From Eledone cirrhosa (taxonomy: Eukaryota), in assembly GCA_964016885.1 (NCBI GenBank), contig OZ024751.1, positions 43,648,001 through 43,712,000 on the forward strand: a DNA stretch of 64,000 nt, written 5' to 3'. Both the position numbers and the translations under genes were made by a program. Position 1 is the first letter of the stretch; every line of letters begins with the position of its first letter. The notes under the pieces were generated by a model, which did no database searches, was not told where the DNA came from, and saw nothing but the letters and a program-made list of their open reading frames with translations. Of this stretch, positions 14,862-49,548 are shown one piece after another.

Positions 14862-15299
14862 GTTTGTGTGTGTGTGTGTGTATATATATATATGTTTGTG
14901 TGTGTGTGTGTGTATATATATATACATATATATATATGTGTGTGTGTATATATAAACATATTGACAGAGAATCAGCTAGGTACCTCCCCACCTAGCTGAT
15001 AGTTATTTGCTGTTGTTAATGTTGTTGTTGCTAATGTTGTCACACTGTTGTTACTTTAAAGTATCAGTTGATCTGTTGTAGTCTTGTTAAGAACTGTTTT
15101 TGGTTGAAGAATTAAATAATCTCCATTTTCTTTTATCTTTAAAGTTTCTATATTTTCCTCAGTATATACTTGCTGTATCTTCAAGCTAGATTAAATTCAC
15201 TGTGGTGCCACACCTGGTGATTGCAGGTAAATGTTAAAAAGACACCCACCCATACATACACACACTTACACATATTATACAGCATCTTCTAATATATAT

Positions 15300-15360
15300 T
15301 TTTATTTTATTTGTTTCAGTCATTGGACTGAAGCTATGCTGGTACACTTCTTTAAAGGGC
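15300..15360 (-). mobile_element. SINE-type 3' tail abutting the 48-bp array
   Basis: - strand reads ...ccagcatagcttcagtccaatgactgaaacaaataaaataaaa, an A-rich retroposon-like terminus. Family recognition is from memory of octopus repeats. Confidence 0.5.
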
Positions 15361-15361
15361 A

Positions 15362-18300
15362 TGTGAAGTGTATTTGTCATGGCACCAGCACTGTCACTAC
15401 CACTTTACACAGTATATGAGGTGTATTTTGTCATGACACCAGCACTACCACTTTACACTTTATATGAGGTGTATTTTGTCATGACACTAGCACTACCACT
15501 TTACACAGTATATGAAGTGTATTTTGTCATGGCACTAGCACTACCACTTTACACAGTATTTGAGGTGTATTTTGTCATGACACTAGCACTACCACTTTAC
15601 ACAGTATATGAGGTGTATTTTGTCATGACACCAGCACTACCACTTTACACAGTATATGAGGTGTATTTTGTCATGACACTAGCACTACCACTTTACACAG
15701 TATATGAGGTGTATTTTGTCATGGCACTAGCTCTACCACTTTACACAGTATATGAGGTGTATTTTGTCATGACACTAGCACTACCACTTTACACAGTATA
15801 TGAGGTGTATTTTGTCATGACACCAGCACTACCACTTTACACAGTATATGAGGTGTATTTTGTCATGGCACTACCACTTTACACAGTATTTGAGGTGTAT
15901 TTTGTCATGATACTAGCACTACCACTTTACGCAGTATATGAAGTGTATTTTGTCATGGCACTAGCTCTACCACTTTACACAGTATATGAGGTGTATTTTG
16001 TCATGACACTAGCACTACCACTTTACGCAGTATATGAAGTGTATTTTGTCATGGCACTAGCACTACCACTTTACACAGTATTTGAGGTGTATTTTGTCAT
16101 GACACTAGCACTACCACTTTACACAGTATATGAGGTGTATTTTGTCATGACACCAGCACTACCACTTTACACAGTATATAAGGTGTATTTTGTCATGACA
16201 CCAACACTACCACTTTACACAGTATATGAGGTGTATTTTGTCATGACACCAGCACTACCACTTTACACAGTATATGAGGTGTATTTTGTCATGGCACTAG
16301 CACTACCACTTTACACAGTATTTGAGGTGTATTTTGTCATGACACTAGCACTACCACTTTACGCAGTATATGAAGTGTATTTTTTCATGGCACCAGCACT
16401 ACCACTTTACACAGTATTTGAGGTGTATTTTGTCATGACACTAGCACTACCACTTTACACAGTATATGAGGTGTATTTTGTCATGACACTAGCACTACCA
16501 CTTTACACAGCATTTGAGGTGTATTTTGTCATAACACTAGCACTACCACTTTACACAGTATATGAGGTGTATTTTGTCACTACACTAGCACTACCACTTT
16601 ACACAGTATTTGAGGTGTATTTTGTCATGGCACCAGCACTACCACTTTACACAGTATATGAGGTGTATTTTGTCATGACACTAGCACTACCACTTTACAC
16701 AGTATTTGAGGTGTATTTTGTCATGACACCAGCACTACCACTTTACACAGTATATGAGGTGTATTTTGTCATGGCACCAGCACTACCACTTTACACAGTA
16801 TATGAAGTGTATTTTGTCATGGCACTAGCACTACCACTTTACACAGTATTTGAGGTGTATTTTGTCATGACACTAGCACAACCACTTTACACAGTATTTG
16901 AGGTGTATTTTGTCATGACACCAGCACTACCACTTTACACAGTATATGAAGTGTATTTTGTCATGGCACTAGCACTACCACTTTACACAGTATTTGAGGT
17001 GTATTTTGTCATGACACCAGCACTACCACTTTACACAGTATATGAGGTGTATTTTGTCATGACACCAGCACTACCACTTTACACAGTATATGAGGTGTAT
17101 TTTGTCATGACACTAGCACTACCACTTTACACAGTATATGAGGTGTATTTTGTCATGGCACTAGCTCTACCACTTTACACAGTATATGAGGTGTATTTTG
17201 TCATGACACTAGCACTACCACTTTACACAGTATATGAGGTGTATTTTGTCATGACACCAGCACTACCACTTTACACAGTATATGAGGTGTATTTTGTCAT
17301 GGCACTACCACTTTACACAGTATTTGAGGTGTATTTTGTCATGATACTAGCACTACCACTTTACGCAGTATATGAAGTGTATTTTGTCATGACACTAGCA
17401 CTACCACTTTACACAGTATATGAGGTGTATTTTGTCATGACACTAGCACTACCACTTTACACAGTATATGAGGTGTATTTTGTCATGGCACTAGCACTAC
17501 CACTTTACACAGTATTTGAGGTGTATTTTGTCATGACACTAGCACTACCACTTTACGCAGTATATGAAGTGTATTTTGTCATGGCACTAGCACTACCACT
17601 TTACACAGTATTTGAGGTGTATTTTGTCATGACACTAGCACTACCACTTTACACAGTATATGAGGTGTATTTTGTCATGACACTAGCACTACCACTTTAC
17701 GCAGTATATGAAGTGTATTTTGTCATGGCACTAGCACTACCACTTTACACAGTATTTGAGGTGTATTTTGTCATGACACTAGCACTACCACTTTACACAG
17801 TATATGAGGTGTATTTTGTCATGACACTAGCACTACCACTTTACACAGTATATGAGGTGTATTTTGTCATGGCACTAGCACTACCACTTTACACAGTATT
17901 TGAGGTGTATTTTGTCATGACATTAGCACTACCACTTTATGCAGTATATGAAGTGTATTTTGTCATGGCACTAGCACTACCACTTTACACAGTATTTGAG
18001 GTGTATTTTGTCATGACACTAGCACTACCACTTTACACAGTATATGAGGTGTATTTTGTCATGACACTAGCACTACCACTTTACACAGTATTTGAGGTGT
18101 ATTTTGTCATGGCACCAGCACTACCACTTTACACAGTATATGAGGTGTATTTTGTCATGACACCAGCACTACCACTTTACACAGTATATGAGGTGTATTT
18201 TGTCATGACACCAGCACTACCACTTTACACAGTATATGAGGTGTATTTTGTCATGACACCAGCACTACCACTTTACACGGTATATGAGGTGTATTTTGTC

Positions 18301-21300
18301 ATGGCACTAGCACTACCACTTTACACAGTATATGAGGTGTATTTTGTCATGACACTAGCACTACCACTTTACACAGTATTTGAGGTGTATTTTGTGATGG
18401 CACCAGCACTACCACTTTACACAGTATATGAGGTGTATTTTGTCATGGCACCAGCACTACCACTTTACACAGTATATGAGGTGTATTTTGTCATGACACC
18501 AGCACTACCACTTTACACAGTATATGAAGTGTATTTTGTCATGACACTAGCACTACCACTTTACACAGTATATGAGGTGTATTTTGTCAAGACACTAGCA
18601 CTACCACTTTACACAGTATATGAGGTGTATTTTGTCATGGCACTAGCACTACCACTTTACACAGTATATGAGGTGTATTTTGTCATGGCACCAGCACTAC
18701 CACTTTACACAGTATATGAGGTGTATTTTGTCAAGACACTAGCACTACCACTTTACACAGTATATGAGGTGTATTTTGTCATGACACTAGCACTACCACT
18801 TTACACAGTATATGAAGTGTATTTTGTCATAACACTAGCACTACCACTTTACACAGTATATGAGGTGTATTTTGTCAAGACACTAGCACTACCACTTTAC
18901 ACAGTATATGAGGTGTATTTTGTCACTACACTAGCACTACCACTTTACACAGTATTTGAGGTGTATTTTGTCATGGCACCAGCACTACTACTTTACACAG
19001 TATATGAGGTGTATTTTGTCATGACACTAGCACCACCACTTTACACAGTATTTGAGGTGTATTTTGTCATGACACCAGCACTACCACTTTACACAGTATA
19101 TGAGGTGTATTTTGTCATGGCACCAGCACTACCACTTTACACAGTATATGAGGTGTATTTTGTCATGACACTAGCTCTACCACTTTACACAGTATATGAG
19201 GTGTATTTTGTCATGACACTAGCACTACCACTTTACACAGTATATGAGATGTATTTTGTCATGACACCAGCACTACCACTTTACACAGTATATGAGGTGT
19301 ATTTTGTCATGACACTAGCACTACCACTTTACGGAGTATATGAAGTGTATTTTGTCATGACACTAGCACTACCACTTTACACGGTATATGAGGTGTATTT
19401 TGTCATGACACCAGCACTACCACTTTACACAGTATATGAGGTGTATTTTGTCATGACACTAGCACTACCACTTTACACAGTATATGAGGTGTATTTTGTC
19501 ATGGCACCAGCACTACCACTTTACACAGTATATGAGGTGTATTTTGTCATGACACTAGCTCTACCACTTTACACAGTATATGAGGTGTATTTTGTCATGA
19601 CAATAGCACTACCACTTTACACAGTATATGAGGTGTATTTTGTCATGGCACCAGCACTACCACTTTACACAGTATATGAGGTGTATTTTGTCATGACACT
19701 AGCTCTACCACTTTACACAGTATATGAGATGTATTTTGTCATGACACCAGCACTACCACTTTACACAATATATGAGGTGTATTTTGTCATAACACTAGCA
19801 CTACCACTTTACGCAGTATATGAAGTGTATTTTGTCATGACACTAGCACTACCACTTTACACAGTATATGAGGTGTATTTTGTCATTACACTAGCACTAC
19901 CACTTTACACAGTATATGAGGTGTATTTTGTCATGACACTAGCACTACCACTTTACACAGTATTTGAGGTGTATTTTGTCATGGCACCAGCACTACCACT
20001 TTACACAGTATATGAGGTGTATTTTGTCATGACACCAGCACTACCACTTTACACAGTATATGAGGTGTATTTTGTCATGACACCAGCACTACCACTTTAC
20101 ACAGTATATGAGGTCTATTTTGTCATGGCACTAGCACTACCACTTTACACAGTATTTGAGGTGTATTTTGTCATGACACTAGCACTACCACTTTACGCAG
20201 TATATGAAGTGTATTTTTTCATGGCACCAGCACTACCACTTTACACAGTATTTGAGGTGTATTTTGTCATGACACTAGCACTACCACTTTACACAGTATA
20301 TGAGGTGTATTTTGTCATGACACTAGCACTACCACTTTACACAGTATTTGAGGTGTATTTTGTCATGGCACCAGCACTACCACTTTACACAGTATATGAG
20401 GTGTATTTTGTCATGGCACCAGCACTACCACTTTACACAGTATATGAGGTGTATTTTGTCATGACACTAGCACTAACCACTTTACACAGTATTTGAGGTG
20501 TATTTTGTCATGGCACCAGCACTACCACTTTACACATTATATGACGTGTATTTTGTCAAGACACTAGCACTACCACTTTACACAGTATATGAGGTGTATT
20601 ATGTCATGACACTAGCACTACCACTTTACACAGTATATGAAGTGTATTTTGTCATAACACTAGCACTACCACTTTACACAGTATATGAGGTGTATTTTGT
20701 CAAGACACTAGCACTACCACTTTACACAGTATATGAGGTGTATTTTGTCACTACACTAGCACTACCACTTTACACAGTATTTGAGGTGTATTTTGTCATG
20801 GCACCAGCACTACTACTTTACACAGTATATGAGGTGTATTTTGTCATGACACTAGCACCACCACTTTACACAGTATTTGAGGTGTATTTTGTCATGACAC
20901 CAGCACTACCACTTTACACAGTATATGAGGTGTATTTTGTCATGGCACCAGCACTACCACTTTACACAGTATATGAGGTGTATTTTGTCATGACACTAGC
21001 TCTACCACTTTACACAGTATATGAGGTGTATTTTGTCATGACACTAGCACTACCACTTTACACAGTATATGAGATGTATTTTGTCATGACACCAGCACTA
21101 CCACTTTACACAGTATATGAGGTGTATTTTGTCATGACACTAGCACTACCACTTTACGGAGTATATGAAGTGTATTTTGTCATGACACTAGCACTACCAC
21201 TTTACACGGTATATGAGGTGTATTTTGTCATGACACCAGCACTACCACTTTACACAGTATATGAGGTGTATTTTGTCATGACACTAGCACTACCACTTTA

Positions 21301-24300
21301 CACAGTATATGAGGTGTATTTTGTCATGACACTAGCACTACCACTTTACACAGTATATGAGGTGTATTTTGTCATGGCACCAGCACTACCACTTTACACA
21401 GTATATGAGGTGTATTTTGTCATGACACTAGCTCTACCACTTTACACAGTATATGAGATGTATTTTGTCATGACACCAGCACTACCACTTTACACAGTAT
21501 ATGAGGTGTATTTTGTCATAACACTAGCACTACCACTTTACGCAGTATATGAAGTGTATTTTGTCATGACACTAGCAGTACCACTTTACACAGTATATGA
21601 GGTGTATTTTGTCATGACACTAGCACTACCACTTTACACAGTATATGAGGTGTATTTTGTCATGACACTAGCACTACCACTTTACACAGTATATGAGATG
21701 TATTTTGTCATGACACCAGCACTACCACTTTACACAGTATATGAGGTGTATTTTGTCAAGACACTAGCACTACCACTTTACGCAGTATATGAAGTGTATT
21801 TTGTCATGACACTAGCACTACCACTTTACACAGTATATGAGGTGTATTTTGTCATGACACCAGCACTACCACTTTACACAGTATATGAGGTGTATTTTGT
21901 CATGACACTAGCACTACCACTTTACACAGTATATGAGGTGTATTTTGTCATGACACTAGCACTACCACTTTACACAGTATATGAGGTGTATTTTGTCATG
22001 ACACCAGCACTACCACTTTACACAGTATATGAGGTGTATTTTGTCATGACACTAGCACTACCACTTTACGCAGTATATGAAGTGTATTTTGTCATGACAC
22101 TAGCACTACCACTTTACACAGTATATGAGGTGTATTTTGTCATCACACTAGCACTACCACTTTACACAGTATATGAGGTGTATTTTGTCATGACACTAGC
22201 ACTACCACTTTACACAGTATATGAGATGTATTTTGTCATGACACCAGCACTACCACTTTACACAGCATATGAGGTGTATTATGTCAAGACACTAGCACTA
22301 CCACTTTACACAGTATATGAGGTGTATTTTGTCACTACACTAGCACTACCACTTTACACAGTATTTGAGGTGTATTTTGTCATGGCACCAGCACTACCAC
22401 TTTACACAGTATATGAGGTGTATTTTGTCATGACACTAGCACTACCACTTTACACAGTATATGAGGTGTATTTTGTCATGACACTAGCACTACCACTTTA
22501 CACAGTATATGAGGTGTATTTTGTCATGACACCAGCACTACCACTTTACACAGTATATGAGGTGTATTTTGTCAAGACACTAGCACTACCACTTTACACA
22601 GTATATGAAGTGTATTTTGTCATGACACTAGCACTACCACTTTACTCAGTATATGAGGTGTATTTTGTCATGGCACCAGCACTACCACTTTACACAGTAT
22701 ATGAGGTGTATTTTGTCATGACACCAGCACTACCACTTTACACAGTATATGAAGTGTATTTTGTCATGACACTAGCACTACCACTTTACACAGTATATGA
22801 GGTGTATTTTGTCATGACACTAGCACTACCACTTTACACAGTATATGAAGTGTATTTTGTCATGACACTAGCACTACCACTTTACACAGTATATGAGGTG
22901 TATTTTGTCATGACACTAGCACTACCACTTTACACAGTATATGAGGTGTATTTTGTAATGACACCAGCACTACCACTTTACACAGTATATGAGGTGTATT
23001 TTGTCATGGCACTAGCACTACCACTTTACACAGTATATGAAGTGTATTTTGTCATGACACTAGCACTACCACTTTACACAGTATATGAAGTGTATTTTGT
23101 CATGACACTAGCTCTACCACTTTACACAGTATATGAAGTGTATTTTGTCATGACACCAGCACTACCACTTTACACAGTACATGAGGTGTATTTTGTCATG
23201 ACACCAGCACTACCACTTTACACAGTATATGAAGTGTATTTTGTCATGACACTAGCTCTACCACTTTACACAGTATATGAAGTGTATTTTGTCATGACAC
23301 CAGCACTACCACTTTACACAGTATATGAGGTATATTTTGTCATGACACCAGCACTACCACTTTACACAGTATATAAGGTGTATTTTGTCATGACACTAGC
23401 TCTACCACTTTACACAGTATATGAGGTGTATTTTGTCATGACACTAGCACTACCACTTTACACAGTATATGAGGTGTATTTTGTCATGACACTAGCACTA
23501 CCACTTTACACAGTGTATGAGGTGTATTTTGTCATGACACTAGCACAACCACTTTACACAGTATGTGAGGTGTATTTTGTCATGGCACCAGCACTACCAC
23601 TTTACACAGTATATGAGGTGTATTTTGTCATGACACTAGCACAACCACTTTACACAGTATGTGAGGTGTATTTTGTCATGGCACCAGCACTACCACTTTA
23701 CACAGTATATGAGGTGTATTTTGTCATGACACTAGCACTACCACTTTACACAGTATATGAGGTGTATTTTGTCATGGCACCAGCACTACCACTTTACACA
23801 GTATATGAGGTGTATTTTGTCATGACACTAGCTCTACCACTTTACACAGTATATGAAGTGTATTTTGTCATGACACCAACACTACCACTTTACACAGTAT
23901 ATGAAGTGTATTTTGTCATGACACCAGCACTACCACTTTACACAGTATATGAGGTGTATTTTGTCATGACACTAGCTCTACCACTTTACACAGTATATGA
24001 AGTGTATTTTGTCATGACACCAGCACTACCACTTTACACAGTATATGAAGTGTATTTTGTCATGACACCAGCACTACCACTTTACACAGTATATGAGGTG
24101 TATTTTGTCATGACACTAGCTCTACCACTTTACACAGTATATGAGGTGTATTTTGTCATGACACTAGCACTACCACTTTACACAGTATATGAAGTGTATT
24201 TTGTCATGGCACCAGCACTACCACTTTACACAGTATATGAGGTGTATTTTGTCATGACACTAGCTCTACCACTGTACACAGTATATGAGGTGTATTTTGT

Positions 24301-27300
24301 CATGACACTAGCACTACCACTTTACACAGTATATGAAGTGTATTTTGTCATGACACCAGCACTACCACTTTACACAGTATATGAGGTGTATTTTGTCATG
24401 ACACTAGCTCTACCACTTTACACAGTATATGAGGTGTATTTTATCATGACACTAGCTCTACCACTTTACACAGTATATGAAGTGTATTTTGTCATGACAC
24501 CAGCACTACCACTTTACACAGTATATGAAGTGTATTTTGTCATGACACTAGCACTACCACTTTACACAGTATATGAGGTGTATTTTGTCATGACACTAGC
24601 ACTACCACTTTACACAGTATATGGAGTGTATTTTGTCATGACACCAGCACTACCACTTTACACAGTATATGAAGTGTATTTTGTCATGACACTAGCACTA
24701 CCACTTTACACAGTATATGAAGTGTATTTTGTCATGGCACTAGCACTACCACTTTACACAGTATATGAGGTGTATTTTGTCATGACACTAGCACTACCAC
24801 TTTACACAGTATATGAGGTGTATTTTGTCATGACACCAGCACTACCACTTTACACAGTATATGAGGTGTATTTTGTCATGGCACTAGCACTACCACTTTA
24901 CACAGTATATGAGGTGTATTTTCTCATGACACCAGCACTACCACTTTACACAGTATATGAGGTGTATTTTGTCATGACACTAGCACTACCACTTTACACA
25001 GTATATGAAGTGTATTTTGTCATGACACCAGCACTACCACTTTACACAGTATATGAGGTGTATTTTGTCATGGCACTAGCACTACCACTTTACACAGTAT
25101 ATGAAGTGTATTTTGTCATGACACCAGCTCTACCACTTTACACAGTATATGAGGTGTATTTTGTCATGACACTAACACTACCACTTTACACAGTATATGA
25201 GGTGTATTTTGTCATGACACCAGCACTACCACTTTACACAGTATATGAGGTGTATTTTGTCATGACACTAGCACTACCACTTTACACAGTATGTGAAGTG
25301 TATTTTGTCATGACACCAGCACTACCACTTTACACAGTATATGAGGTGTATTTTGTCATGGCACTAGCACTACCACTTTACACAGTATATGAAGTGTATT
25401 TTGTCATGACACCAGCACTACCACTTTACACAGTATATGAGGTGTATTTTGTCATGACACTAGCTCTACCACTTTACACAGTATATGAAGTATATTTTGT
25501 TATGACACCAGCACTACCACTTTACACAGTATATGAGGTGTATTTTGTCATGGCACCAGCACTACCACTTTACACAGTATATGAGGTGTATTTTGTCATG
25601 GCACTAGCACTACCACTTTACACAGTATATGAAGTGTATTTTGTCATGACACCAGCACTACCACTTTACACAGTATATGAGGTGTATTTTGTCATGACAC
25701 TAGCACTACCACTTTACACAGTATATGAAGTGTATTTTGTCATGGCACCAGCACTACCACTTTACACAGTATATGAGGTGTATTTTGTCATGACACTAGC
25801 TCTACCACTGTACACAGTATATGAGGTGTATTTTGTCATGACACTAGCACTACCACTTTACACAGTATATGAAGTGTATTTTGTCATGACACCAGCACTA
25901 CCACTTTACACAGTATATGAGGTGTATTTTGTCATGACACTAGCTCTACCACTTTACACAGTATATGAGGTGTATTTTATCATGACACTAGCTCTACCAC
26001 TTTACACAGTATATGAAGTGTATTTTGTCATGACACCAGCACTACCACTTTACACAGTATATGAAGTGTATTTTGTCATGACACTAGCACTACCACTTTA
26101 CACAGTATATGAGGTGTATTTTGTCATGACACTAGCACTACCACTTTACACAGTATATGGAGTGTATTTTGTCATGACACCAGCACTACCACTTTACACA
26201 GTATATGAGGTGTATTTTGTCATGACACTAGCTCTACCACTTTACACAGTATATGAAGTGTATTTTGTCATGACACCAGCACTACCACTTTACACAGTAT
26301 ATGAGGTGTATTTTGTCATGACACTAGCTCTACCACTTTACACAGTATATGAGGTGTATTTTGTCATGACACTAGCACTACCACTTTACACAGTATATGA
26401 AGTGTATTTTGTCATGGCACCAGCACTACCACTTTACACAGTATATGAGGTGTATTTTGTCATGACACTAGCTCTACCACTGTACACAGTATATGAGGTG
26501 TATTTTGTCATGACACTAGCACTACCACTTTACACAGTATATGAAGTGTATTTTGTCATGACACCAGCACTACCACTTTACACAGTATATGAGGTGTATT
26601 TTGTCATGACACTAGCTCTACCACTTTACACAGTATATGAGGTGTATTTTATCATGACACTAGCTCTACCACTTTACACAGTATATGAAGTGTATTTTGT
26701 CATGACACCAGCACTACCACTTTACACAGTATATGAAGTGTATTTTGTCATGACACTAGCACTACCACTTTACACAGTATATGAGGTGTATTTTGTCATG
26801 ACACTAGCACTACCACTTTACACAGTATATGAGGTGTATTTTGTCATGACACTAGCACTACCACTTTACGCAGTATATGAAGTGTATTTTGTCATGACAC
26901 TAGCACTACCACTTTACACAGTATATGAGGTGTATTTTGTCATCACACTAGCACTACCACTTTACACAGTATATGAGGTGTATTTTGTCATGACACTAGC
27001 ACTACCACTTTACACAGTATATGAGATGTATTTTGTCATGACACCAGCACTACCACTTTACACAGCATATGAGGTGTATTATGTCAAGACACTAGCACTA
27101 CCACTTTACACAGTATATGAGGTGTATTTTGTCACTACACTAGCACTACCACTTTACACAGTATTTGAGGTGTATTTTGTCATGGCACCAGCACTACCAC
27201 TTTACACAGTATATGAGGTGTATTTTGTCATGACACTAGCACTACCACTTTACACAGTATATGAGGTGTATTTTGTCATGACACTAGCACTACCACTTTA

Positions 27301-30300
27301 CACAGTATATGAGGTGTATTTTGTCATGACACCAGCACTACCACTTTACACAGTATATGAGGTGTATTTTGTCAAGACACTAGCACTACCACTTTACACA
27401 GTATATGAAGTGTATTTTGTCATGACACTAGCACTACCACTTTACTCAGTATATGAGGTGTATTTTGTCATGGCACCAGCACTACCACTTTACACAGTAT
27501 ATGAGGTGTATTTTGTCATGACACCAGCACTACCACTTTACACAGTATATGAAGTGTATTTTGTCATGACACTAGCACTACCACTTTACACAGTATATGA
27601 GGTGTATTTTGTCATGACACTAGCACTACCACTTTACACAGTATATGAAGTGTATTTTGTCATGACACTAGCACTACCACTTTACACAGTATATGAGGTG
27701 TATTTTGTCATGACACTAGCACTACCACTTTACACAGTATATGAGGTGTATTTTGTAATGACACCAGCACTACCACTTTACACAGTATATGAGGTGTATT
27801 TTGTCATGGCACTAGCACTACCACTTTACACAGTATATGAAGTGTATTTTGTCATGACACTAGCACTACCACTTTACACAGTATATGAAGTGTATTTTGT
27901 CATGACACTAGCTCTACCACTTTACACAGTATATGAAGTGTATTTTGTCATGACACCAGCACTACCACTTTACACAGTACATGAGGTGTATTTTGTCATG
28001 GCACCAGCACTACCACTTTACACAGTATATGAGGTGTATTTTGTCATGACACTAGCTCTACCACTTTACACAGTATATGAGATGTATTTTGTCATGACAC
28101 CAGCACTACCACTTTACACAGTATATGAGGTGTATTTTGTCATAACACTAGCACTACCACTTTACGCAGTATATGAAGTGTATTTTGTCATGACACTAGC
28201 AGTACCACTTTACACAGTATATGAGGTGTATTTTGTCATGACACTAGCACTACCACTTTACACAGTATATGAGGTGTATTTTGTCATGACACTAGCACTA
28301 CCACTTTACACAGTATATGAGATGTATTTTGTCATGACACCAGCACTACCACTTTACACAGTATATGAGGTGTATTTTGTCAAGACACTAGCACTACCAC
28401 TTTACGCAGTATATGAAGTGTATTTTGTCATGACACTAGCACTACCACTTTACACAGTATATGAGGTGTATTTTGTCATGACACCAGCACTACCACTTTA
28501 CACAGTATATGAGGTGTATTTTGTCATGACACTAGCACTACCACTTTACACAGTATATGAGGTGTATTTTGTCATGACACTAGCACTACCACTTTACACA
28601 GTATATGAGGTGTATTTTGTCATGACACCAGCACTACCACTTTACACAGTATATGAGGTGTATTTTGTCATGACACTAGCACTACCACTTTACGCAGTAT
28701 ATGAAGTGTATTTTGTCATGACACTAGCACTACCACTTTACACAGTATATGAGGTGTATTTTGTCATCACACTAGCACTACCACTTTACACAGTATATGA
28801 GGTGTATTTTGTCATGACACTAGCACTACCACTTTACACAGTATATGAGATGTATTTTGTCATGACACCAGCACTACCACTTTACACAGCATATGAGGTG
28901 TATTATGTCAAGACACTAGCACTACCACTTTACACAGTATATGAGGTGTATTTTGTCACTACACTAGCACTACCACTTTACACAGTATTTGAGGTGTATT
29001 TTGTCATGGCACCAGCACTACCACTTTACACAGTATATGAGGTGTATTTTGTCATGACACTAGCACTACCACTTTACACAGTATATGAGGTGTATTTTGT
29101 CATGACACTAGCACTACCACTTTACACAGTATATGAGGTGTATTTTGTCATGACACCAGCACTACCACTTTACACAGTATATGAGGTGTATTTTGTCAAG
29201 ACACTAGCACTACCACTTTACACAGTATATGAAGTGTATTTTGTCATGACACTAGCACTACCACTTTACTCAGTATATGAGGTGTATTTTGTCATGGCAC
29301 CAGCACTACCACTTTACACAGTATATGAGGTGTATTTTGTCATGACACCAGCACTACCACTTTACACAGTATATGAAGTGTATTTTGTCATGACACTAGC
29401 ACTACCACTTTACACAGTATATGAGGTGTATTTTGTCATGACACTAGCACTACCACTTTACACAGTATATGAAGTGTATTTTGTCATGACACTAGCACTA
29501 CCACTTTACACAGTATATGAGGTGTATTTTGTCATGACACTAGCACTACCACTTTACACAGTATATGAGGTGTATTTTGTAATGACACCAGCACTACCAC
29601 TTTACACAGTATATGAGGTGTATTTTGTCATGGCACTAGCACTACCACTTTACACAGTATATGAAGTGTATTTTGTCATGACACTAGCACTACCACTTTA
29701 CACAGTATATGAAGTGTATTTTGTCATGACACTAGCTCTACCACTTTACACAGTATATGAAGTGTATTTTGTCATGACACCAGCACTACCACTTTACACA
29801 GTACATGAGGTGTATTTTGTCATGACACCAGCACTACCACTTTACACAGTATATGAAGTGTATTTTGTCATGACACTAGCTCTACCACTTTACACAGTAT
29901 ATGAAGTGTATTTTGTCATGACACCAGCACTACCACTTTACACAGTATATGAGGTATATTTTGTCATGACACCAGCACTACCACTTTACACAGTATATAA
30001 GGTGTATTTTGTCATGACACTAGCTCTACCACTTTACACAGTATATGAGGTGTATTTTGTCATGACACTAGCACTACCACTTTACACAGTATATGAGGTG
30101 TATTTTGTCATGACACTAGCACTACCACTTTACACAGTGTATGAGGTGTATTTTGTCATGACACTAGCACAACCACTTTACACAGTATGTGAGGTGTATT
30201 TTGTCATGGCACCAGCACTACCACTTTACACAGTATATGAGGTGTATTTTGTCATGACACTAGCACAACCACTTTACACAGTATGTGAGGTGTATTTTGT

Positions 30301-33300
30301 CATGGCACCAGCACTACCACTTTACACAGTATATGAGGTGTATTTTGTCATGACACTAGCACTACCACTTTACACAGTATATGAGGTGTATTTTGTCATG
30401 GCACCAGCACTACCACTTTACACAGTATATGAGGTGTATTTTGTCATGACACTAGCTCTACCACTTTACACAGTATATGAAGTGTATTTTGTCATGACAC
30501 CAACACTACCACTTTACACAGTATATGAAGTGTATTTTGTCATGACACCAGCACTACCACTTTACACAGTATATGAGGTGTATTTTGTCATGACACTAGC
30601 TCTACCACTTTACACAGTATATGAAGTGTATTTTGTCATGACACCAGCACTACCACTTTACACAGTATATGAAGTGTATTTTGTCATGACACCAGCACTA
30701 CCACTTTACACAGTATATGAGGTGTATTTTGTCATGACACTAGCTCTACCACTTTACACAGTATATGAGGTGTATTTTGTCATGACACTAGCACTACCAC
30801 TTTACACAGTATATGAAGTGTATTTTGTCATGGCACCAGCACTACCACTTTACACAGTATATGAGGTGTATTTTGTCATGACACTAGCTCTACCACTGTA
30901 CACAGTATATGAGGTGTATTTTGTCATGACACTAGCACTACCACTTTACACAGTATATGAAGTGTATTTTGTCATGACACCAGCACTACCACTTTACACA
31001 GTATATGAGGTGTATTTTGTCATGACACTAGCTCTACCACTTTACACAGTATATGAGGTGTATTTTATCATGACACTAGCTCTACCACTTTACACAGTAT
31101 ATGAAGTGTATTTTGTCATGACACCAGCACTACCACTTTACACAGTATATGAAGTGTATTTTGTCATGACACTAGCACTACCACTTTACACAGTATATGA
31201 GGTGTATTTTGTCATGACACTAGCACTACCACTTTACACAGTATATGGAGTGTATTTTGTCATGACACCAGCACTACCACTTTACACAGTATATGAAGTG
31301 TATTTTGTCATGACACTAGCACTACCACTTTACACAGTATATGAAGTGTATTTTGTCATGGCACTAGCACTACCACTTTACACAGTATATGAGGTGTATT
31401 TTGTCATGACACTAGCACTACCACTTTACACAGTATATGAGGTGTATTTTGTCATGACACCAGCACTACCACTTTACACAGTATATGAGGTGTATTTTGT
31501 CATGGCACTAGCACTACCACTTTACACAGTATATGAGGTGTATTTTCTCATGACACCAGCACTACCACTTTACACAGTATATGAGGTGTATTTTGTCATG
31601 ACACTAGCACTACCACTTTACACAGTATATGAAGTGTATTTTGTCATGACACCAGCACTACCACTTTACACAGTATATGAGGTGTATTTTGTCATGGCAC
31701 TAGCACTACCACTTTACACAGTATATGAAGTGTATTTTGTCATGACACCAGCTCTACCACTTTACACAGTATATGAGGTGTATTTTGTCATGACACTAAC
31801 ACTACCACTTTACACAGTATATGAGGTGTATTTTGTCATGACACCAGCACTACCACTTTACACAGTATATGAGGTGTATTTTGTCATGACACTAGCACTA
31901 CCACTTTACACAGTATGTGAAGTGTATTTTGTCATGACACCAGCACTACCACTTTACACAGTATATGAGGTGTATTTTGTCATGGCACTAGCACTACCAC
32001 TTTACACAGTATATGAAGTGTATTTTGTCATGACACCAGCACTACCACTTTACACAGTATATGAGGTGTATTTTGTCATGACACTAGCTCTACCACTTTA
32101 CACAGTATATGAAGTATATTTTGTTATGACACCAGCACTACCACTTTACACAGTATATGAGGTGTATTTTGTCATGGCACCAGCACTACCACTTTACACA
32201 GTATATGAGGTGTATTTTGTCATGGCACTAGCACTACCACTTTACACAGTATATGAAGTGTATTTTGTCATGACACCAGCACTACCACTTTACACAGTAT
32301 ATGAGGTGTATTTTGTCATGACACTAGCACTACCACTTTACACAGTATATGAAGTGTATTTTGTCATGGCACCAGCACTACCACTTTACACAGTATATGA
32401 GGTGTATTTTGTCATGACACTAGCTCTACCACTGTACACAGTATATGAGGTGTATTTTGTCATGACACTAGCACTACCACTTTACACAGTATATGAAGTG
32501 TATTTTGTCATGACACCAGCACTACCACTTTACACAGTATATGAGGTGTATTTTGTCATGACACTAGCTCTACCACTTTACACAGTATATGAGGTGTATT
32601 TTATCATGACACTAGCTCTACCACTTTACACAGTATATGAAGTGTATTTTGTCATGACACCAGCACTACCACTTTACACAGTATATGAAGTGTATTTTGT
32701 CATGACACTAGCACTACCACTTTACACAGTATATGAGGTGTATTTTGTCATGACACTAGCACTACCACTTTACACAGTATATGGAGTGTATTTTGTCATG
32801 ACACCAGCACTACCACTTTACACAGTATATGAGGTGTATTTTGTCATGACACTAGCTCTACCACTTTACACAGTATATGAAGTGTATTTTGTCATGACAC
32901 CAGCACTACCACTTTACACAGTATATGAGGTGTATTTTGTCATGGCACCAGCACTACCACTTTACACAGTATATGAGGTGTATTTTGTCATGGCACTAGC
33001 ACTACCACTTTACACAGTATATGAAGTGTATTTTGTCATGACACCAGCACTACCACTTTACACAGTATTGAGGTGTATTTTGTCATGACACTAGCACTAC
33101 CACTTTACACAGTATATGAAGTGTATTTTGTCATGGCACCAGCACTACCACTTTACACAGTATATGAGGTGTATTTTGTCATGACACTAGCTCTACCACT
33201 GTACACAGTATATGAGGTGTATTTTGTCATGACACTAGCACTACGACTTTACACAGTATATGAAGTGTATTTTGTCATGACACCAGCACTACCACTTTAC

Positions 33301-36300
33301 ACAGTATATGAGGTGTATTTTGTCATGACACTAGCTCTACCACTTTACACAGTATATGAGGTGTATTTTATCATGACACTAGCTCTACCACTTTACACAG
33401 TATATGAAGTGTATTTTGTCATGACACCAGCACTACCACTTTACACAGTATATGAAGTGTATTTTGTCATGACACTAGCACTACCACTTTACACAGTATA
33501 TGAGGTGTATTTTGTCATGACACTAGCACTACCACTTTACACAGTATATGGAGTGTATTTTGTCATGACACCAGCACTACCACTTTACACAGTATATGAA
33601 GTGTATTTTGTCATGACACTAGCACTACCACTTTACACAGTATATGAAGTGTATTTTGTCATGGCACTAGCACTACCACTTTACACAGTATATGAGGTGT
33701 ATTTTGTCATGACACTAGCACTACCACTTTACACAGTATATGAGGTGTATTTTGTCATGACACCAGCACTACCACTTTACACAGTATATGAGGTGTATTT
33801 TGTCATGGCACTAGCACTACCACTTTACACAGTATATGAGGTGTATTTTCTCATGACACCAGCACTACCACTTTACACAGTATATGAGGTGTATTTTGTC
33901 ATGACACTAGCACTACCACTTTACACAGTATATGAAGTGTATTTTGTCATGACACCAGCACTACCACTTTACACAGTATATGAGGTGTATTTTGTCATGG
34001 CACTAGCACTACCACTTTACACAGTATATGAAGTGTATTTTGTCATGACACCAGCACTACCACTTTACACAGTATATGAGGTGTATTTTGTCATGGCACT
34101 AGCACTACCACTTTACACAGTATATGAAGTGTATTTTGTCATGACACCAGCTCTACCACTTTACACAGTATATGAGGTGTATTTTGTCATGACACTAGCA
34201 CTACCACTTTACACAGTATATGAGGTGTATTTTGTCATGACACCAGCACTACCACTTTACACAGTATATGAGGTGTATTTTGTCATGACACCAGCACTAC
34301 CACTTTACACAGTATATGAGGTGTATTTTGTCATGACACTAGCACTACCACTTTACACAGTATGTGAAGTGTATTTTGTCATGACACCAGCACTACCACT
34401 TTACACAGTATATGAGGTGTATTTTGTCATGGCACTAGCACTACCACTTTACACAGTATATGAAGTGTATTTTGTCATGACACCAGCACTACCACTTTAC
34501 ACAGTATATGAGGTGTATTTTGTCATGACACTAGCTCTACCACTTTACACAGTATATGAAGTGTATTTTGTCATGACACCAGCACTACCACTTTACACAG
34601 TATATGAGGTGTATTTTGTCATGGCACCAGCACTACCACTTTACACAGTATATGAGGTGTATTTTGTCATGACACTAGCACTACCACTTTACACAGTATA
34701 TGAGGTGTATTTTGTCATGACACCAGCACTACCACTTTACACAGTATATGAGGTGTATTTTGTCATGGCACTAGCACTACCACTTTACACAGTATATGAA
34801 GTGTATTTTGTCATGACACCAGCACTACCACTTTACACAGTATATGAGGTGTATTTTGTCATGGCACTAGCACTACCACTTTACACAGTATATGAAGTGT
34901 ATTTTGTCATGACACCAGCACTACCACTTTACACAGTATATGAGGTGTATTTTGTCATGACACCAGCACTACCACTTTACACAGTATATGAGGTGTATTT
35001 TGTCATGACACTAGCACTACCACTTTACACAGTATATGAAGTGTATTTTGTCATGACACTAGCACTACCACTTTACACAGTATATGAAGTGTATTTTGTC
35101 ATGACACTAGCACTACCACTTTACACAGTATATGAAGTGTATTTTGTCATGACACCAGCACTACCACTTTACACAGTATATGAGGTGTATTTTGTCATGA
35201 CACCAGCACTACCACTTTACACAGTATATGAGGTGTATTTTGTCATGGCACTAGCACTACCACTTTACACAGTATATGAAGTGTATTTTGTCATGACACC
35301 AGCACTACCACTTTACACAGTATATGAGGTGTATTTTGTCATGACACCAGCACTACCACTTTACACAGTATATGAGGTGTATTTTGTCATGACACCAGCA
35401 CTACCACTTTACACAGTATATGAGGTGTATTTTGTCATGACACCAGCTCTACCACTTTACACAGTATATGAGGTGTATTTTGTCATGACACTAGCACTAC
35501 CACTTTACACAGTATATGAGGTGTATTTTGTCATGACACCAGCACTACCACTTTACACAGTATATGAGGTGTATTTTGTCATGACACCAGCACTAACACT
35601 TTACACAGTATATGAGGTGTATTTTGTCATGACACTAGCACTACCACTTTACACAGTATATGAGGTGTATTTTGTCATGACACTAGCACTACCACTTTAC
35701 ACAGTATATGAAGTGTATTATGTCATGACACCAGCACTACCACTTTACACAGTATATGAGGTGTATTTTGTCATGACACTAGCACTACCACTTTACACAG
35801 TATATGAAGTGTATTATGTCATGACACCAGCACTACCACTTTACACAGTATATGAGGTGTATTTTGTCATGGCACTAGCACTACCACTTTACATAGTATA
35901 TGAAGTGTATTTTGTCATGACACCAGCACTACCACTTTACACAGTATATGAGGTGTATTTTGTCATGACAACAGCACTACCACTTTACACAGTATATGAG
36001 GTGTATTTTGTCATGACACCAGCTCTACCACTTTACACAGTATATGAGATGTATTTTGTCATGACACTAGCACTACCACTTTACACAGTATATGAGGTGT
36101 ATTTTGTCATGACACTAGCACTACCACTTTACACAGTATATGAGGTGTATTTTGTCATGACACCAGCACTACCACTTTACACAGTATATGAGGTGTATTT
36201 TGTCATGACACTTGCACTACCACTTTACACAGTATATGAAGTGTATTTTGTCATGACACCAGCACTACCACTTTACACAGTATATGAGGTGTATTTTGTC

Positions 36301-39300
36301 ATGACACCAGCACTACCACTTTACACAGTATATGAGGTGTATTTTGTCATGACACCAGCTCTACCACTTTACACAGTATATGAGGTGTATTTTGTCATGA
36401 CACTAGCACTACCACTTTACACAGTATATGAGGTGTATTTTGTCATGACACCAGCACTACCACTTTACACAGTATATGAGGTGTATTTTGTCATGACACC
36501 AGCACTACCACTTTACACAGTATATGAGGTGTATTTTGTCATGACACTAGCACTACCACTTTACACAGTATATGAGGTGTATTTTGTCATGACACTAGCA
36601 CTACCACTTTACACAGTATATGAAGTGTATTATGTCATGACACCAGCACTACCACTTTACACAGTATATGAGGTGTATTTTGTCATGACACTAGCACTAC
36701 CACTTTACACAGTATATGAAGTGTATTATGTCATGACACCAGCACTACCACTTTACACAGTATATGAGGTGTATTTTGTCATGGCACTAGCACTACCACT
36801 TTACACAGTATATGAAGTGTATTTTGTCATGACACCAGCACTACCACTTTACACAGTATATGAGGTGTATTTTGTCATGACAACAGCACTACCACTTTAC
36901 ACAGTATATGAGGTGTATTTTGTCATGACACCAGCTCTACCACTTTACACAGTATATGAGATGTATTTTGTCATGACACTAGCACTACCACTTTACACAG
37001 TATATGAGGTGTATTTTGTCATGACACTAGCACTACCACTTTACACAGTATATGAGGTGTATTTTGTCATGACACCAGCACTACCACTTTACACAGTATA
37101 TGAGGTGTATTTTGTCATGACACTTGCACTACCACTTTACACAGTATATGAAGTGTATTTTGTCATGACACCAGCACTACCACTTTACACAGTATATGAG
37201 GTGTATTTTGTCATGACACCAGCACTACCACTTTACACAGTATATGAGGTGTATTTTGTCATGGCACTAGCACTACCACTTTACACAGTATATGAAGTGT
37301 ATTTTGTCATGACACCAGCACTACCACTTTACACAGTATATGAAGTGTATTTTGTCATGGCACTAGCACTACCACTTTACACAGTATATGAAGTGTATTT
37401 TGTCATGACACCAGCACTACCACTTTACACAGTATATGAGGTGTATTTTGTCATGACACCAGCACTACCACTTTACACAGTATATGAGGTGTATTTTGTC
37501 ATGACACCAGCTCTACCACTTTACACAGTATATGAAGTGTATTTTGTCATGACACTAGCACTACCACTTTACACAGTATGTGAGGTGTATTTGTCATGAC
37601 ACCAGCACTACCACTTTACACAGTATATGAAGTGTATTTTGTCATGACACTAGCACTACCACTTTACACAGTATTTGAGGTGTATTTTGTCATGACACCA
37701 GCACTACCACTTTACACAGTATATGAGGTGTATTTTGTCATGACACTAGCTCTACCACTTTACACAGTATATGAGGTGTATTTTATCATGACACCAGCTC
37801 TACCACTTTACACAGTATATGAAGTGTATTTTGTCATGACACTAGCACTACCACTTTACACAGTATTTGAGGTGTATTTTGTCATGACACCAGCACTACC
37901 ACTTTACACAGTATGTGAGGTGTATTTGTCATGACACCATCACTACCACTTTACACAGTATATGAAGTGTATTTTGTCATGACACTAGCACTACCACTTT
38001 ACACAGTATATGAGGTGTATTTTGTCATGACACCAGTACTACCACTTTACACAGTATATGAGGTGTATTTTGTCATGACACTAGCTCTACCACTTTACAC
38101 AGTATATGAGGTGTATTTTGTCATGACACTAGCTCTACCACTTTACACAGTATATGAAGTGTATTTTGTCATGACACTAGCTCTACCACTTTACACAGTA
38201 TATGAGGTGTATTTTGTCATGACACCAGCACTACCACTTTACACAGTATATGAAGTGTATTTTGTCATGACACTAGCTCTACCACTTTACACAGTATATG
38301 AGGTGTATTTTGTCATGACACCAGCACTACCACTTTACACAGTATATGAAGTGTATTTTGTCATGACACTAGCACTACCACTTTACACAGTATTTGAGGT
38401 GTATTTTGTCATGACACCAGCACTACCACTTTACACAGTATGTGAGGTGTATTTTGTCATGACACTAGCTCTACCACTTTACACAGTATATGAAGTGTAT
38501 TTTGTCATGACACTAGCACTACCACTTTACACAGTATATGAGGTGTATTTTGTCATGACACCAGCACTACCACTTTACACAGTATATGAGGTGTATTTTG
38601 TCATGACACTAGCTCTACCACTTTACACAGTATATGAAGTGTATTTTGTCATGACACCAGCACTACCACTTTACACAGTATATTAGGTGTATTTTGTCAT
38701 GAAACTAGCTCTACCACTTTACACAGTATATGAAGTGTATTTTGTCATGACACCAGCTCTACCACTTTACACAGTATTTGAGGTGTATTTTGTCATGACA
38801 CTAGCACTACCACTTTACACAGTATATTAGGTGTATTTTGTCATGACACCAGCTCTACCACTTTACACAGTATATGAGGTGTATTTTGTCATGACACTAG
38901 CACTACCACTTTACACAGTATATGAGGTGTATTTTGTTATGACACCAGCTCTACCACTTTACACAGTATATGAGGTGTATTTTGTCATGACACCAGCTCT
39001 ACCACTTTACACAGTATATGAGGTGTATTTTGTCATGACACTAGCACTACCACTTTACACAGTATATGAGGTGTATTTTGTCATGACACTAGCACTACCA
39101 CTTTACACAGTATATGAGGTGTATTTTGTCATGACACCAGCACTACCACTTTACACAGTATGTGAGGTGTATTTGTCATGACACCAGCACTACCACTTTA
39201 CACAGTATATGAAGTGTATTTTGTCATGACACTAGCACTACCACTTTACACAGTATATGAGGTGTATTTTGTCATGACACCAGCACTACCACTTTACACA

Positions 39301-41345
39301 GTATATGAGGTGTATTTTGTCATGACACTAGCTCTACCACTTTACACAGTATATGAGGTGTATTTTGTCATGGCACCAGCACTACCACTTTACACAGTAT
39401 TTGAGGTGTATTTTGTCATGGCACTAGCACTACCACTTTACACAGTATATGAGGTGTATTTTGTCATGGCACTAGCACTACCACTTTACACAGTATATGA
39501 GGTGTATTTTGTCATGGCACTAGCACTACCACTTTACACAGTATATGAGGTGTATGTTGTCATGACACCAGCACTACCACTTTACACAGTATATGAAGTG
39601 TATTTTGTCATGGCACCAGCACTACCACTTTACACAGTATATGAGGTGTATTTTGTCATGACACCAGCACTACCACTTTACACAGTATATGAGGTGTATT
39701 TTGTCATGACACTAGCTCTACCACTTTACACAGTATATGAGGTGTATTTTGTCATGGCACCAGCACTACCACTTTACACAGTATTTGAGGTGTATTTTGT
39801 CATGGCACTAGCACTACCACTTTACACAGTATATGAGGTGTATTTTGTCATGGCACTAGCACTACCACTTTACACAGTATATGAGGTGTATTTTGTCATG
39901 GCACTAGCACTACCACTTTACACAGTATATGAGGTGTATGTTGTCATGACACCAGCACTACCACTTTACACAGTATATGAAGTGTATTTTGTCATGGCAC
40001 CAGCACTACCACTTTACACAGTATATGAGGTGTATTTTGTCATGACACCAGCACTACCACTTTACACAGTATATGAGGTGTATTTTGTCATGACACTAGC
40101 ACTACCACTTTACACAGTATATGAAGTGTATGTTGTCATGGCACTAGCACTACCACTTTACACAGTATTTGAGGTGTATTTTGTCATGACACTAGCACTA
40201 CCACTTTACACAGTATTTGAGGTGTATTTTGTCATGACACTAGCACTACCACTTTACACAGTATTTGAGGTGTATTTGTCATGGCACTAGCACTACCACT
40301 TTACACAGTATATGAGGTGTATTTTGTCATGACACCAGCACTACCACTTTACACAGTATATGAGGTGTATTTTGTCATGGCACTAGCACTACCACTTTAC
40401 ACAGTATATGAGGTGTATTTTGTCATGGCACTAGCACTACCACTTTACACAGTATTTGAGGTGTATTTTGTCATGACACTAGCACTACCACTTTACACAG
40501 TATTTGAGGTGTATTTTGTCATGACACTAGCACTACCAATTTACACAGTATTTGAGGTGTATTTGTCATGGCACTAGCACTACCACTTTACACAGTATAT
40601 GAAGTGTATTTTGTCATGGCACCAGCACTACCACTTTACACAGTATTTGAGGTGTATTTTGTCATGGCACTAGCACTACCACTTTACACAGTATATGAGG
40701 TGTATTTTGTCATGACACTAGCACTACCACTTTACACAGTATATGAGGTGTATTTTGTCATGACACTAGCACTACCACTTTACACAGTATATGAGGTGTA
40801 TTTTGTCATGACACTAGCACTACCACTTTACACAGTATATGAGGTGTATTTTGTCATGGCACTAGCACTACCACTTTACACAGTATATGAGGTGTATTTT
40901 GTCATGACACTAGCACTACCACTTTACACAGTATATGAAGTGTATTTTGTCATGGCACTAGCACTACCACTTTACACAGTATATGAGGTGTATTTTGTCA
41001 TGGCACTAGCACTACCACTTTACACAGTATATGAGGTGTATTTTGTCATGGCACTAGCACTACCACTTTACACAGTATATGAAGTGTATTTTGTCATGGC
41101 ACTAGCACTACCACTTTACACAGTATATGAGGTGTATTTTGTCATGGCACTAGCACTACCACTTTACACAGTATATGAAGTGTATTTTGTCATGGCACTA
41201 GCACTACCACTTTACACAGTATATGAAGTGTATTTTGTCATGGCACTAGCACTATCACTTTACAGAATGTACTTGGTACAAATTATTGTGACACCAGCAC
41301 TATCACTTTATAGAGTATAAGTACATTTTATTATTGTACCAGCAT
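15362..41345. repeat. ~26-kb tandem array of a 48-bp unit (~540 copies), SINE-module derived
   Basis: Consensus GTGTATTTTGTCATG(A/G)CAC(T/C)AGCACTACCACTTTACACAGTATATGA(G/A). Degenerate terminal units at both edges. Rare 42-, 47- and 49-bp variants. Confidence 0.99.
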
Positions 41346-43449: not shown

Positions 43450-43563
43450 AACGAAGGAAATGTGGTAAGGAATCAGGTGGACCATAACGCACCAAAGTAC
43501 TCAATACTTAGGGTAGTAGAGTGGGTAATAGGAAAAAGTATGACCCCAACGGCAGAGCTCAAG
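43450..43563 (-). mobile_element. PLE-like family P1 fragment lacking the hairpin
   Basis: Homologous to 562-675 and 45552-45665, with the same boundary against (TA)n. Confidence 0.65.
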
Positions 43564-43641
43564 TTGTGTCAAAGACGTACCAACCTCCCTAGTGCTGGTG
43601 CCATGATAAAATGCACTCAGTAAAGTGACGAGTAGGACCCC

Positions 43642-43673
<32 letters not shown>

Positions 43674-45104: not shown

Positions 45105-45278
45105 TCAGTAACAGAGAAGACCCGCCTTACCTAAATATATAGTAAAACCTACTCCAGCCAGTAGGCATCTCTAACAAAATACACCCCGTCCCACCACCCC
45201 CACCCCCACCCGATCCACACCACCCCGTTCTATGTAAAGTTATGTTGGTGCCGCGCCTTCGAGGCCGAAACAAATGAG

Positions 45279-45539
45279 ATCGTGTAGGTGTCACGACAAA
45301 AAAACACACAGTCCACGCTGTAATGTGGCCGTGTAGGCAACACGGTAAAAACCTCCCAGACCCACACTGTAAATGTGGTTGGTGTTAGGAAGGGCATCCA
45401 ACTGTAGAAAACCTGCCAGACAGTCCTATGCGAGCAAGACAATCACTCTTGCCTCAAGTGGGACTACCCCCGTCCAAACCCATGCAAGCGTGGAACACGG
45501 ACGTTAAACGTTGATGATGATGATGATGATGATGATGAT
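45279..45539 (+). mobile_element. SINE 3' part (subfamily C) with two copies of the ~48-bp module
   Basis: cgtgtagg...cacgctgtaatgtggc / cgtgtagg...cacactgtaaatgtgg, then ggtgttaggaagggcatcc and (TGA)n tail. Confidence 0.88.
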
Positions 45540-45551
45540 ATATATATATAT

Positions 45552-45757: not shown

Positions 45758-45761
45758 ATAT

Positions 45762-46682: not shown

Positions 46683-47050
46683 GAGGCACATGGCATAGTG
46701 GTTAGAGCATTGGCCTTGCAATCAAAAGGTTGTGAGTTCAATTCTCAGACCGGCTGATGTGTTGTTTCCTTGAGCAAGACACTTTATTTCACATTACTCC
46801 AGTTTACTCAGCTGTAGAAATGAGATGATAGGACTGGGGTCCCTATCATTCCACTGCAAAGGTGCCACGGCAAAAAAGCACCCAGCCCACACTGTAAAGT
46901 GGACGTGTAGGGGTCACAGAAAAAAAAGCACCCAGCACTCACTGTAAATGAGATTGGTGTTAGAAAGGGCATCCAGCTGTAGAAATCAAGCCAGAATCAG
47001 TTCCCGTCCCACCCTTGCAAGCAGGGAAAAGCGGACGTAAAAATGATGAT
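46683..47050 (+). mobile_element. tRNA-derived SINE (subfamily A), full length, with duplicated internal module
   Basis: A box tggcatagtgg, B box gttcaattc. aaaaaagcacccagc.c.cactgtaaa occurs twice (46872, 46922). (TGA)n tail. Confidence 0.92.
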
Positions 47051-47087
47051 ATATACACATACAGAGAGAGAGAGAGGTGAGGCAGAA

Positions 47088-49389: not shown

Positions 49390-49548
49390 CACACTTTACT
49401 GAGTGCATTTTATCATGGCACCAGCACTAGGGAGGTTGGTACGACTTTGACACAACTGAAGAATCCTCCCAATCTTTTATTTGACAGGTTTTCTATGACT
49501 GGATGCTCTTCCTAACAGCAACCAAGTTAATGAGTGTACTGGGTACCA
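49390..49548 (-). mobile_element. SINE internal/tail fragments containing the 48-bp-type module
   Basis: cactttactgagtgcattttatcatggcaccagcacta, then ggatgctcttcctaacagcaacc. Confidence 0.65.

What the first reader, a model, noticed from the sequence alone, without database searches (positions are those of the whole stretch)
15362..41345. 26-kb satellite grown from an internal module of a SINE
Seen: the reverse complement of the unit (gtgctggtg(t/c)catgacaaaatacacctcatatactgtgtaaagtggta) aligns to the SINE module in this window: ggtgccacggcaaaaaagcacccagcccacactgtaaagtgg at 46861, and more closely tagtgctggtgccatgataaaatgcactca-gtaaagtg at 43590 and 49390. On the - strand the array runs into an A-rich retroposon-like tail at 15300-15360. 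Inference: this is one SINE whose internal VNTR expanded ~540-fold into a macro-array. TE-derived satellites are known in general, but a graded series within one locus is unusual.
Basis: partly seen in the sequence, partly recalled or inferred. Interest (0 to 1): 0.75.

Follow-up and report, generated by a model that had tools for sequence, protein, structure and literature searches.

The report
Satellite grown from a LINE tail repeat
This 26-kb block of repeated 48-letter DNA is real and most likely grew from a short repeat in the tail of an old jumping gene (a LINE, not one SINE); it is one of several such blocks in this genome, some far larger, so it is an ordinary new example of a known way satellite DNA arises.

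Summary
The array is real (48 bp x 539, 15395-41264) and derives from a retroposon module, but the 'one SINE with a 540-fold internal VNTR' model fails. The unit matches best (40-42 of 48) a module in the 3' UTR of an old LINE family (RTE-like), whose dispersed copies already carry one to several modules. The SINE at 46683 is only a distant relative (32 matches; marginal against shuffles) and took its modules from a younger LINE of the same group. The tail at 15299-15359 is a retroposon tail, but of a different, module-free family; no cognate head, UTR or tail flanks the array. The locus is not unique: arrays of module variants span 87 kb (C3), 73 kb (C27) and at least 114 kb (C1), and this array holds 374 of 27,185 genome-wide hits of a long-array pattern. 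The window's 'graded series' mixes several lineages. Exact internal block duplications (up to 4,964 bp) fit growth by unequal exchange. This matches known retrotransposon-derived satellites, and the scan already noted a 48-bp satellite from an RTE/SINE 3' UTR elsewhere in this genome (e1-9585604). Low interest.

The parts
15395..41264 (-). 48-bp tandem array, about 539 copies, mean 2.9% from consensus, 4.6% pairwise; retroposon sense is the minus strand
41265..41345 (-). two degenerate modules at the 5' edge (element sense), likely relics of the multi-module seed copy
   Evidence: TRF row 41240-41334; 'relic' is inference
15362..15394 (-). last, truncated unit at the 3' edge
15299..15359 (-). 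about 60-bp 3' end of an unrelated, module-free interspersed family (family B); not the tail of the module-bearing element
   Evidence: junction with the array bridged without differences by contigs of 3 runs of one sample
21357..26320 (.). 4,964-bp block identical to 27981-32944 (lag 138 units)
27981..32944 (.). second copy of the 4,964-bp block
46683..47056 (+). full-length young SINE (family A): tRNA-like head, two divergent modules, (ATG)n tail; its 3' half is near-identical to the 3' UTR of an intact 1040-aa LINE
43562..43627 (+). single truncated module with upstream sequence from another (ATG)n-tailed lineage; 98% identical over 66 bp to the copy at 49392-49457 (-)
49392..49457 (-). second copy of that single-module fragment
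45110..45540 (+). 5'-truncated copy of a young LINE 3' UTR with two modules (part of it repeated at about 46061-46303)
   Evidence: read by eye: against the L288 3' UTR
55936..56505 (+). separate 12-copy array of a young-lineage module variant that runs into its own (ATG)n tail; 28 of 48 identical to the 26-kb unit

Best explanation
The array is a 48-bp satellite whose unit matches a tandem module in the 3' untranslated tail of an old LINE retrotransposon family, and it likely grew on the spot from a short multi-module remnant of such a LINE copy by slippage and unequal exchange. Shown: dispersed copies of the old LINE read ORF end, UTR, one to several modules, (ATG)n tail; the unit is 40-42 of 48 identical to that module; the array holds exact internal block duplications; the same module family has grown into much larger arrays at other loci. 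Inferred: a 5'-truncated LINE copy seeded this locus; its own tail was lost or replaced, leaving the array abutting a fragment of an unrelated repeat; growth was by DNA-level duplication, not retrotransposition; the array has no function.
For: Unit against a consensus built from 29 loci picked by the LINE tail: score 80, 0 of 2000 shuffles reach it (max 48). 21 of 24 loci picked by the old ORF end plus UTR carry the module and 17 of 24 the tail; 14 control loci of another LINE score at background. An intact relative has one 1040-aa ORF with endonuclease and RT domains and modules in its 3' UTR. Module counts before the tail in the 29 loci run 0-6, one 31; 33 related arrays run 2-54 copies, 10 of 33 ending in the LINE tail. 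The 87-kb C3 array runs straight into the LINE tail. Exact blocks of 4,964, 1,195 and 810 bp and shifting variant frequencies along the array.
Against: At this locus neither the LINE tail (score 15) nor the upstream UTR (score 17) is present; the best match of ORF end plus UTR in 2 kb upstream scored 33 against 22-28 in 10 shuffles and lies in a low-complexity stretch. So the seed element is inferred from the unit alone. Only 1 of 33 related arrays keeps the upstream UTR and 23 of 33 lack the tail, so some arrays may have spread as tail-less pieces. An older SINE sharing the old module cannot be excluded: only the family A head was tested (1 of 29 and 2 of 33 hits, background 4 of 156).
Confidence: 0.8

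Rival explanations
1. One reading: one SINE, whose internal VNTR expanded about 540-fold, with the 15300-15360 tail as its own 3' end.
For: SINE family A carries two related modules; the tail is a real retroposon tail and abuts the last unit.
Against: The tail is family B: 0 of 19 fetched copies have a module within 60 bp upstream, family B against the unit scores 15, and 0 of 33 related arrays end in it. No family A head upstream (score 15). The unit is 32 matches from SINE A module 1 but 40 from the old LINE module. No target-site duplication beyond a 6-bp shared word.
Confidence: 0.05
2. The array was seeded by a piece moved from another array of the old module (gene conversion, circle reinsertion or transduction), not by a LINE copy that inserted here.
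For: No LINE flanks at this locus. The 26-kb and C3 units share two derived positions and are 41 of 48 identical.
Against: No other scored locus exceeds 88% identity to the unit trimer (39 of 1074 candidates scored). Degenerate old modules at the 5' edge look like a seed that aged in place. The C3 unit is closer to the old module (43) than to this unit (41).
Confidence: 0.12
3. The length is partly an assembly artefact (a falsely duplicated block).
For: A 4,964-bp block occurs twice without a single difference.
Against: Contig depth of array words over flank depth is about 293, 134 and 64 in run X2 against 276, 117 and 59 copies of those words in the window; run X3 gives about 158 and 41. This is rough (the tool says depth is no copy number) and probably the assembly's own sample. 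It supports hundreds of copies but cannot settle one 6.6-kb step.
Confidence: 0.1

Closest known systems
Satellites expanded from short tandem arrays inside retrotransposons (Lathyrus sativus, PMC7004042, abstract and outline read; pea PisTR-A from Ogre and Macas et al. 2009 on 3' UTRs, seen only as a table row and reference in PMC6947457 passages)
   Same: Short arrays travel inside dispersed retrotransposons and occasionally expand into long arrays; here too the repeat sits in the 3' UTR.
   Different: The host is a non-LTR LINE in an animal; large arrays lie at scattered chromosome positions; no link to centromeres was tested.
SINE-derived satellites (sSat) of squamates (PMC10702118, parts 1, 3, 4 of 5 read)
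   Same: A spectrum from elements with internal duplications to loci of up to 1000 units; independent origins at many loci; long arrays are homogeneous.
   Different: Unit 48 bp versus 70-290 nt; closest source is a LINE 3' UTR that a SINE also borrowed; no extended terminal unit of the parent at this locus; no clear subtelomeric position.
LINE-derived SINE 3' parts (PMC5786205, passages read; supplement text searched for four motifs, no hit)
   Same: The SINE's 3' half is taken from a partner LINE.
   Different: That paper describes no tandem module (0 occurrences of 'tandem') and no octopus element.

Membership tests
SINE-derived satellite (sSat) | Repeat unit is part of a SINE | tested here: inconclusive
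   Homologous to SINE A modules but marginal (score 29, 2 of 1000 shuffles); much closer to a LINE 3' UTR module.
SINE-derived satellite (sSat) | Terminal unit extends into the parent SINE up to its 5' or 3' end (major variants) | tested here: not met
   No family A head, no cognate tail; the tail present is from another family.
SINE-derived satellite (sSat) | At least four homogeneous middle monomers | tested here: met
   539 copies, 94%.
SINE-derived satellite (sSat) | Subtelomeric preference | tested here: inconclusive
   This array lies about 10 Mb from the end of a 53.9-Mb contig; the others at 2.3 of 443 Mb, 24 of 379 Mb and 12 of 22 Mb.
Satellite from a retrotransposon-borne tandem repeat | Short arrays of the unit inside dispersed retrotransposon copies | tested here: met
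Satellite from a retrotransposon-borne tandem repeat | Occasional expansion into long arrays | tested here: met
   26 kb here; 87 kb, 73 kb, at least 114 kb elsewhere.
Satellite from a retrotransposon-borne tandem repeat | Long array still joined to parent sequence | tested here: inconclusive
   Met for the C3 array, not at this locus.
Satellite from a retrotransposon-borne tandem repeat | Expansion at (peri)centromeres, as in Lathyrus | not testable with these tools
   No centromere map or FISH.
RTE-clade LINE (the parent) | Single ORF with AP-type endonuclease and reverse transcriptase | tested here: met
   L286: 1040 aa, PF03372 and PF00078 above cut-off; this is a younger relative (the query's best hits were 44-56% identical), the old family itself is decayed.
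RTE-clade LINE (the parent) | Microsatellite 3' tail | tested here: met
   (ATG)n; PMC9115989 passage calls microsatellites a common RTE feature.
RTE-clade LINE (the parent) | RT phylogeny places it in RTE | not tested
   No reference RTs at hand; the name RTE rests on architecture, recalled motifs and earlier scan notes.
tRNA-derived SINE (family A at 46683) | tRNA-like head | tested here: inconclusive
   Rfam tRNA 21.9 bits, E 0.041, below the gathering score 29.
tRNA-derived SINE (family A at 46683) | Short, multi-copy, 3' end shared with a LINE | tested here: met
   40 full-length hits at 92-94% from 4874 candidates (self included); 3' half near-identical to the L286 and L289 UTRs.

The most novel reading that the evidence does not exclude
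One 48-bp module, kept in the 3' UTR of several old and young LINE lineages and passed to a SINE, is an intrinsic satellite seed: it has grown independently into at least four arrays of 26 to over 114 kb and makes up well over a megabase of this genome. That would be a replicated natural experiment on satellite birth, with every stage from two copies to thousands present and datable by parent lineage.
Probability: 0.3. Interest if true: 0.5.

Novelty: new member of a known kind. Interest (0 to 1): 0.2.

Why it matters
Little for this locus alone: it is one of many satellites in a satellite-rich genome and shows no sign of a function. The family as a whole is a usable model of how a LINE-borne tandem module seeds satellites repeatedly, and it warns repeat annotators that these arrays will be mislabelled as SINE or LINE.

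Tried and rejected
Family B tail as the array's own tail: rejected. SINE A as direct parent: rejected on identity. L143, where another LINE's ORF abuts a module, looked like a second parent; its relatives end before the module, so it was dropped as a chance neighbour and its family used as control. Target-site duplication around array plus tail: longest shared word 6 bp, no control run. Unusual folding of the module: RNA z-scores between -1.4 and +0.3 for 6 variants, nothing; DNA folding not run. Rfam on 15200-16200: 0 hits. Pfam on decayed copies read with X at stops: 1 weak RT hit (E 0.064) in 3 frames of L143, none in 3 frames of L231. Kojima 2018 supplement text: none of 4 motifs found (figures held as pictures would not be seen). 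No RNA holder listed. RAD-seq run X4 does not cover the flank, so length polymorphism was not tested. No related genomes are held for G000, so the orthologous site was not tested. The first lag scan missed the 4,964-bp block through a filter of mine; one search replaces it. The middle's output was cut; counts on those loci come. L023 and L044 were left out of the 33 arrays (both inside the C3 array), L243 out of the 24 LINE loci, L123 out of the 29 tail loci, L066 out of the family B consensus, L164 out; one of 40 arbitrary stretches was not returned. Five paper searches listed no description of this satellite; Repbase and Dfam were not searchable.

Full report
Observation. TRF finds a 48-bp array at 15395-41264, 539.3 copies, 94% matches. 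Split on an anchor, 511 of 529 intervals are exactly 48 bp, with five common variable positions; units lie 2.9% from consensus and 4.6% apart. Two degenerate units extend the high-coordinate edge to about 41345 and a truncated unit ends near 15362. The window is G000:C11:43648001-43712000 in a 3.0-Gb assembly; 'octopus-like' is my recall and the wording of earlier scan notes, not a test.

Is the unit a SINE module? The element at 46683-47056 is a young SINE family (40 full-length hits at 92-94% among the 40 scored of 4874 candidates; weak tRNA match) with two modules. The unit aligns to it only marginally: score 29 to the family consensus, reached by 2 of 1000 shuffles; 24 to the window copy, reached by 20 of 1000. 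It aligns better to the fragments at 43590 and 49390 (35 and 41; 0 of 1000). Those belong to another (ATG)n-tailed lineage and are 98% identical to each other over 66 bp.

The closer source. A search with three units found related short arrays on many chromosomes at 74-88%. Many run into a shared (ATG)n tail. Searching with that tail gave 29 further loci whose consensus, 79% alike, includes the module; the unit scores 80 against it, 0 of 2000 shuffles reach that, and single units match 37-42 of 48. These loci carry 0-6 modules before the tail, one 31. An earlier scan note (e1-9585604) suggested an RTE 3' UTR, so I looked upstream: three loci showed the same decayed LINE ORF end, and 8 of 29 carry the upstream UTR against 0 of 156 background pieces. 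Of 24 loci picked by that ORF end plus UTR, 21 have the module and 17 the tail, while 14 loci of an unrelated LINE score at background. A protein search led to intact relatives: L286 has one 1040-aa ORF with endonuclease and RT domains, and its 3' UTR is near-identical to the 3' half of SINE A. So the module is a LINE 3' UTR repeat present in several lineages, and the SINE borrowed it. The clade name RTE is inferred from architecture; no tree was made.

The tail. 15299-15359 matches many dispersed copies of a family whose upstream sequence is unrelated to the module; tail score 77, family against the unit 15. 0 of 19 fetched copies have a module within 60 bp upstream and 0 of 33 related arrays end in this tail. 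The cognate LINE or SINE A tail is absent from 1 kb downstream (scores 18 and 21, shuffle maxima 33 and 27); no SINE A head or LINE UTR lies in 500 bp upstream. The junction is real in the reads: contigs of three runs of one sample bridge it with no differences.

Not unique. C3:24177406-24264772 is an 87-kb array of 1820 copies of an old-type unit (43 of 48 to the old module, 41 to this unit) that runs directly into the LINE tail. One of 39 arbitrary 10-kb stretches lay wholly in a young-type array, which spans C27:11970896-12043468, 1513 copies; another held 22 copies. C1 has an array from about 2295331 to beyond 2409000 (the part before 2349001 is known only from pattern hits). A pattern needing eleven in-phase units has 27,185 hits genome-wide (control 1), of which this array gives 374. 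The pattern undercounts (265 hits for 1820 units on C3), so such arrays exceed 1.3 Mb. Unit identities split into an old group (this array, C3) and a young group (C27, C1, window 55936, SINE A), 28-33 matches between groups: the window's 'series' is a mixture. The genome is rich in other satellites too: two more of the 39 stretches lay wholly in unrelated 34- and 41-bp arrays, so a special tendency of this module is not shown.

Mechanism. Shown: modules are already tandem in dispersed LINE copies; arrays of 2-54 copies are common (loci chosen by a three-unit query, so biased to arrays); this array has exact internal duplications of 4,964, 1,195, 810 and 727 bp and variant frequencies that shift along it; C3 has similar blocks. 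Inferred from general knowledge of tandem repeats: slippage lengthens the short array, then unequal exchange duplicates blocks. Inferred: the LINE's tail was lost or replaced by a family B fragment, order unknown. Rough depth ratios fit hundreds of copies but come from what is probably the assembly's own sample. No unusual folding and no Rfam match; nothing points to a function.

Comparison. It works like the Lathyrus satellites that expand from short arrays inside retrotransposons (PMC7004042, abstract) and like squamate sSats, which reach up to 1000 units and cover the range from internal duplication to satellite (PMC10702118, parts 1, 3, 4). It is not filed as an sSat, since the parent is closer to a LINE and no SINE terminus is attached. 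TE-derived mini- and macrosatellites are tabulated in PMC6947457 (passages). Five searches listed no paper on this repeat; part 1 of 3 of an octopus repeat annotation (PMC13282606) does not mention it; repeat libraries could not be searched. Verdict: real, retroposon-derived, a new member of a known kind, one of many in this genome; interest 0.2.

Noticed in passing
G000:C3:24177406-24264772; C27:11970896-12043468; C1:2295331 to beyond 2409000: Three larger arrays (87 kb, 73 kb, at least 114 kb) of variants of the same module; the C3 array keeps the LINE tail and is a better example of a LINE-attached satellite than this locus.
   Followed up: partly
window 43460-43645 and 45555-45760: Two copies of an element ending in a long palindrome (intact at about 45640-45755). 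In the 43460 copy the palindrome core is replaced by the 66-bp fragment that is 98% identical to 49392-49457, which looks like a local templated insertion.
   Followed up: no
L065 and L066 (G000:C28 near 92.31 Mb): The family B tail itself forms a tandem array of about 47-bp units.
   Followed up: no
L286:1557-4676: Intact 1040-aa LINE ORF with a PHD-like Cys-rich stretch after the RT domain (PF00628, 23.5 bits, just under the cut-off of 24), inserted in a simple-repeat array.
   Followed up: no
window 3655-6322, 10910-11607, 57852-60321, 51789-53790: Other homogeneous tandem arrays (71 bp x 37, 22 bp x 32, 37 bp x 67, 23 bp x 87); origin not examined.
   Followed up: no
L212-L225 (G000:C27:11.94-12.07 Mb): Several 112-bp and 137-bp tandems made of module plus part of the LINE tail, 49-bp arrays of the SINE A module, and a 56-copy 48-bp array near the 73-kb array.
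   Followed up: no
L191, L208, L185: Arbitrary 10-kb stretches lying wholly or almost wholly in unrelated satellites (34, 41 and about 277 bp).
   Followed up: no
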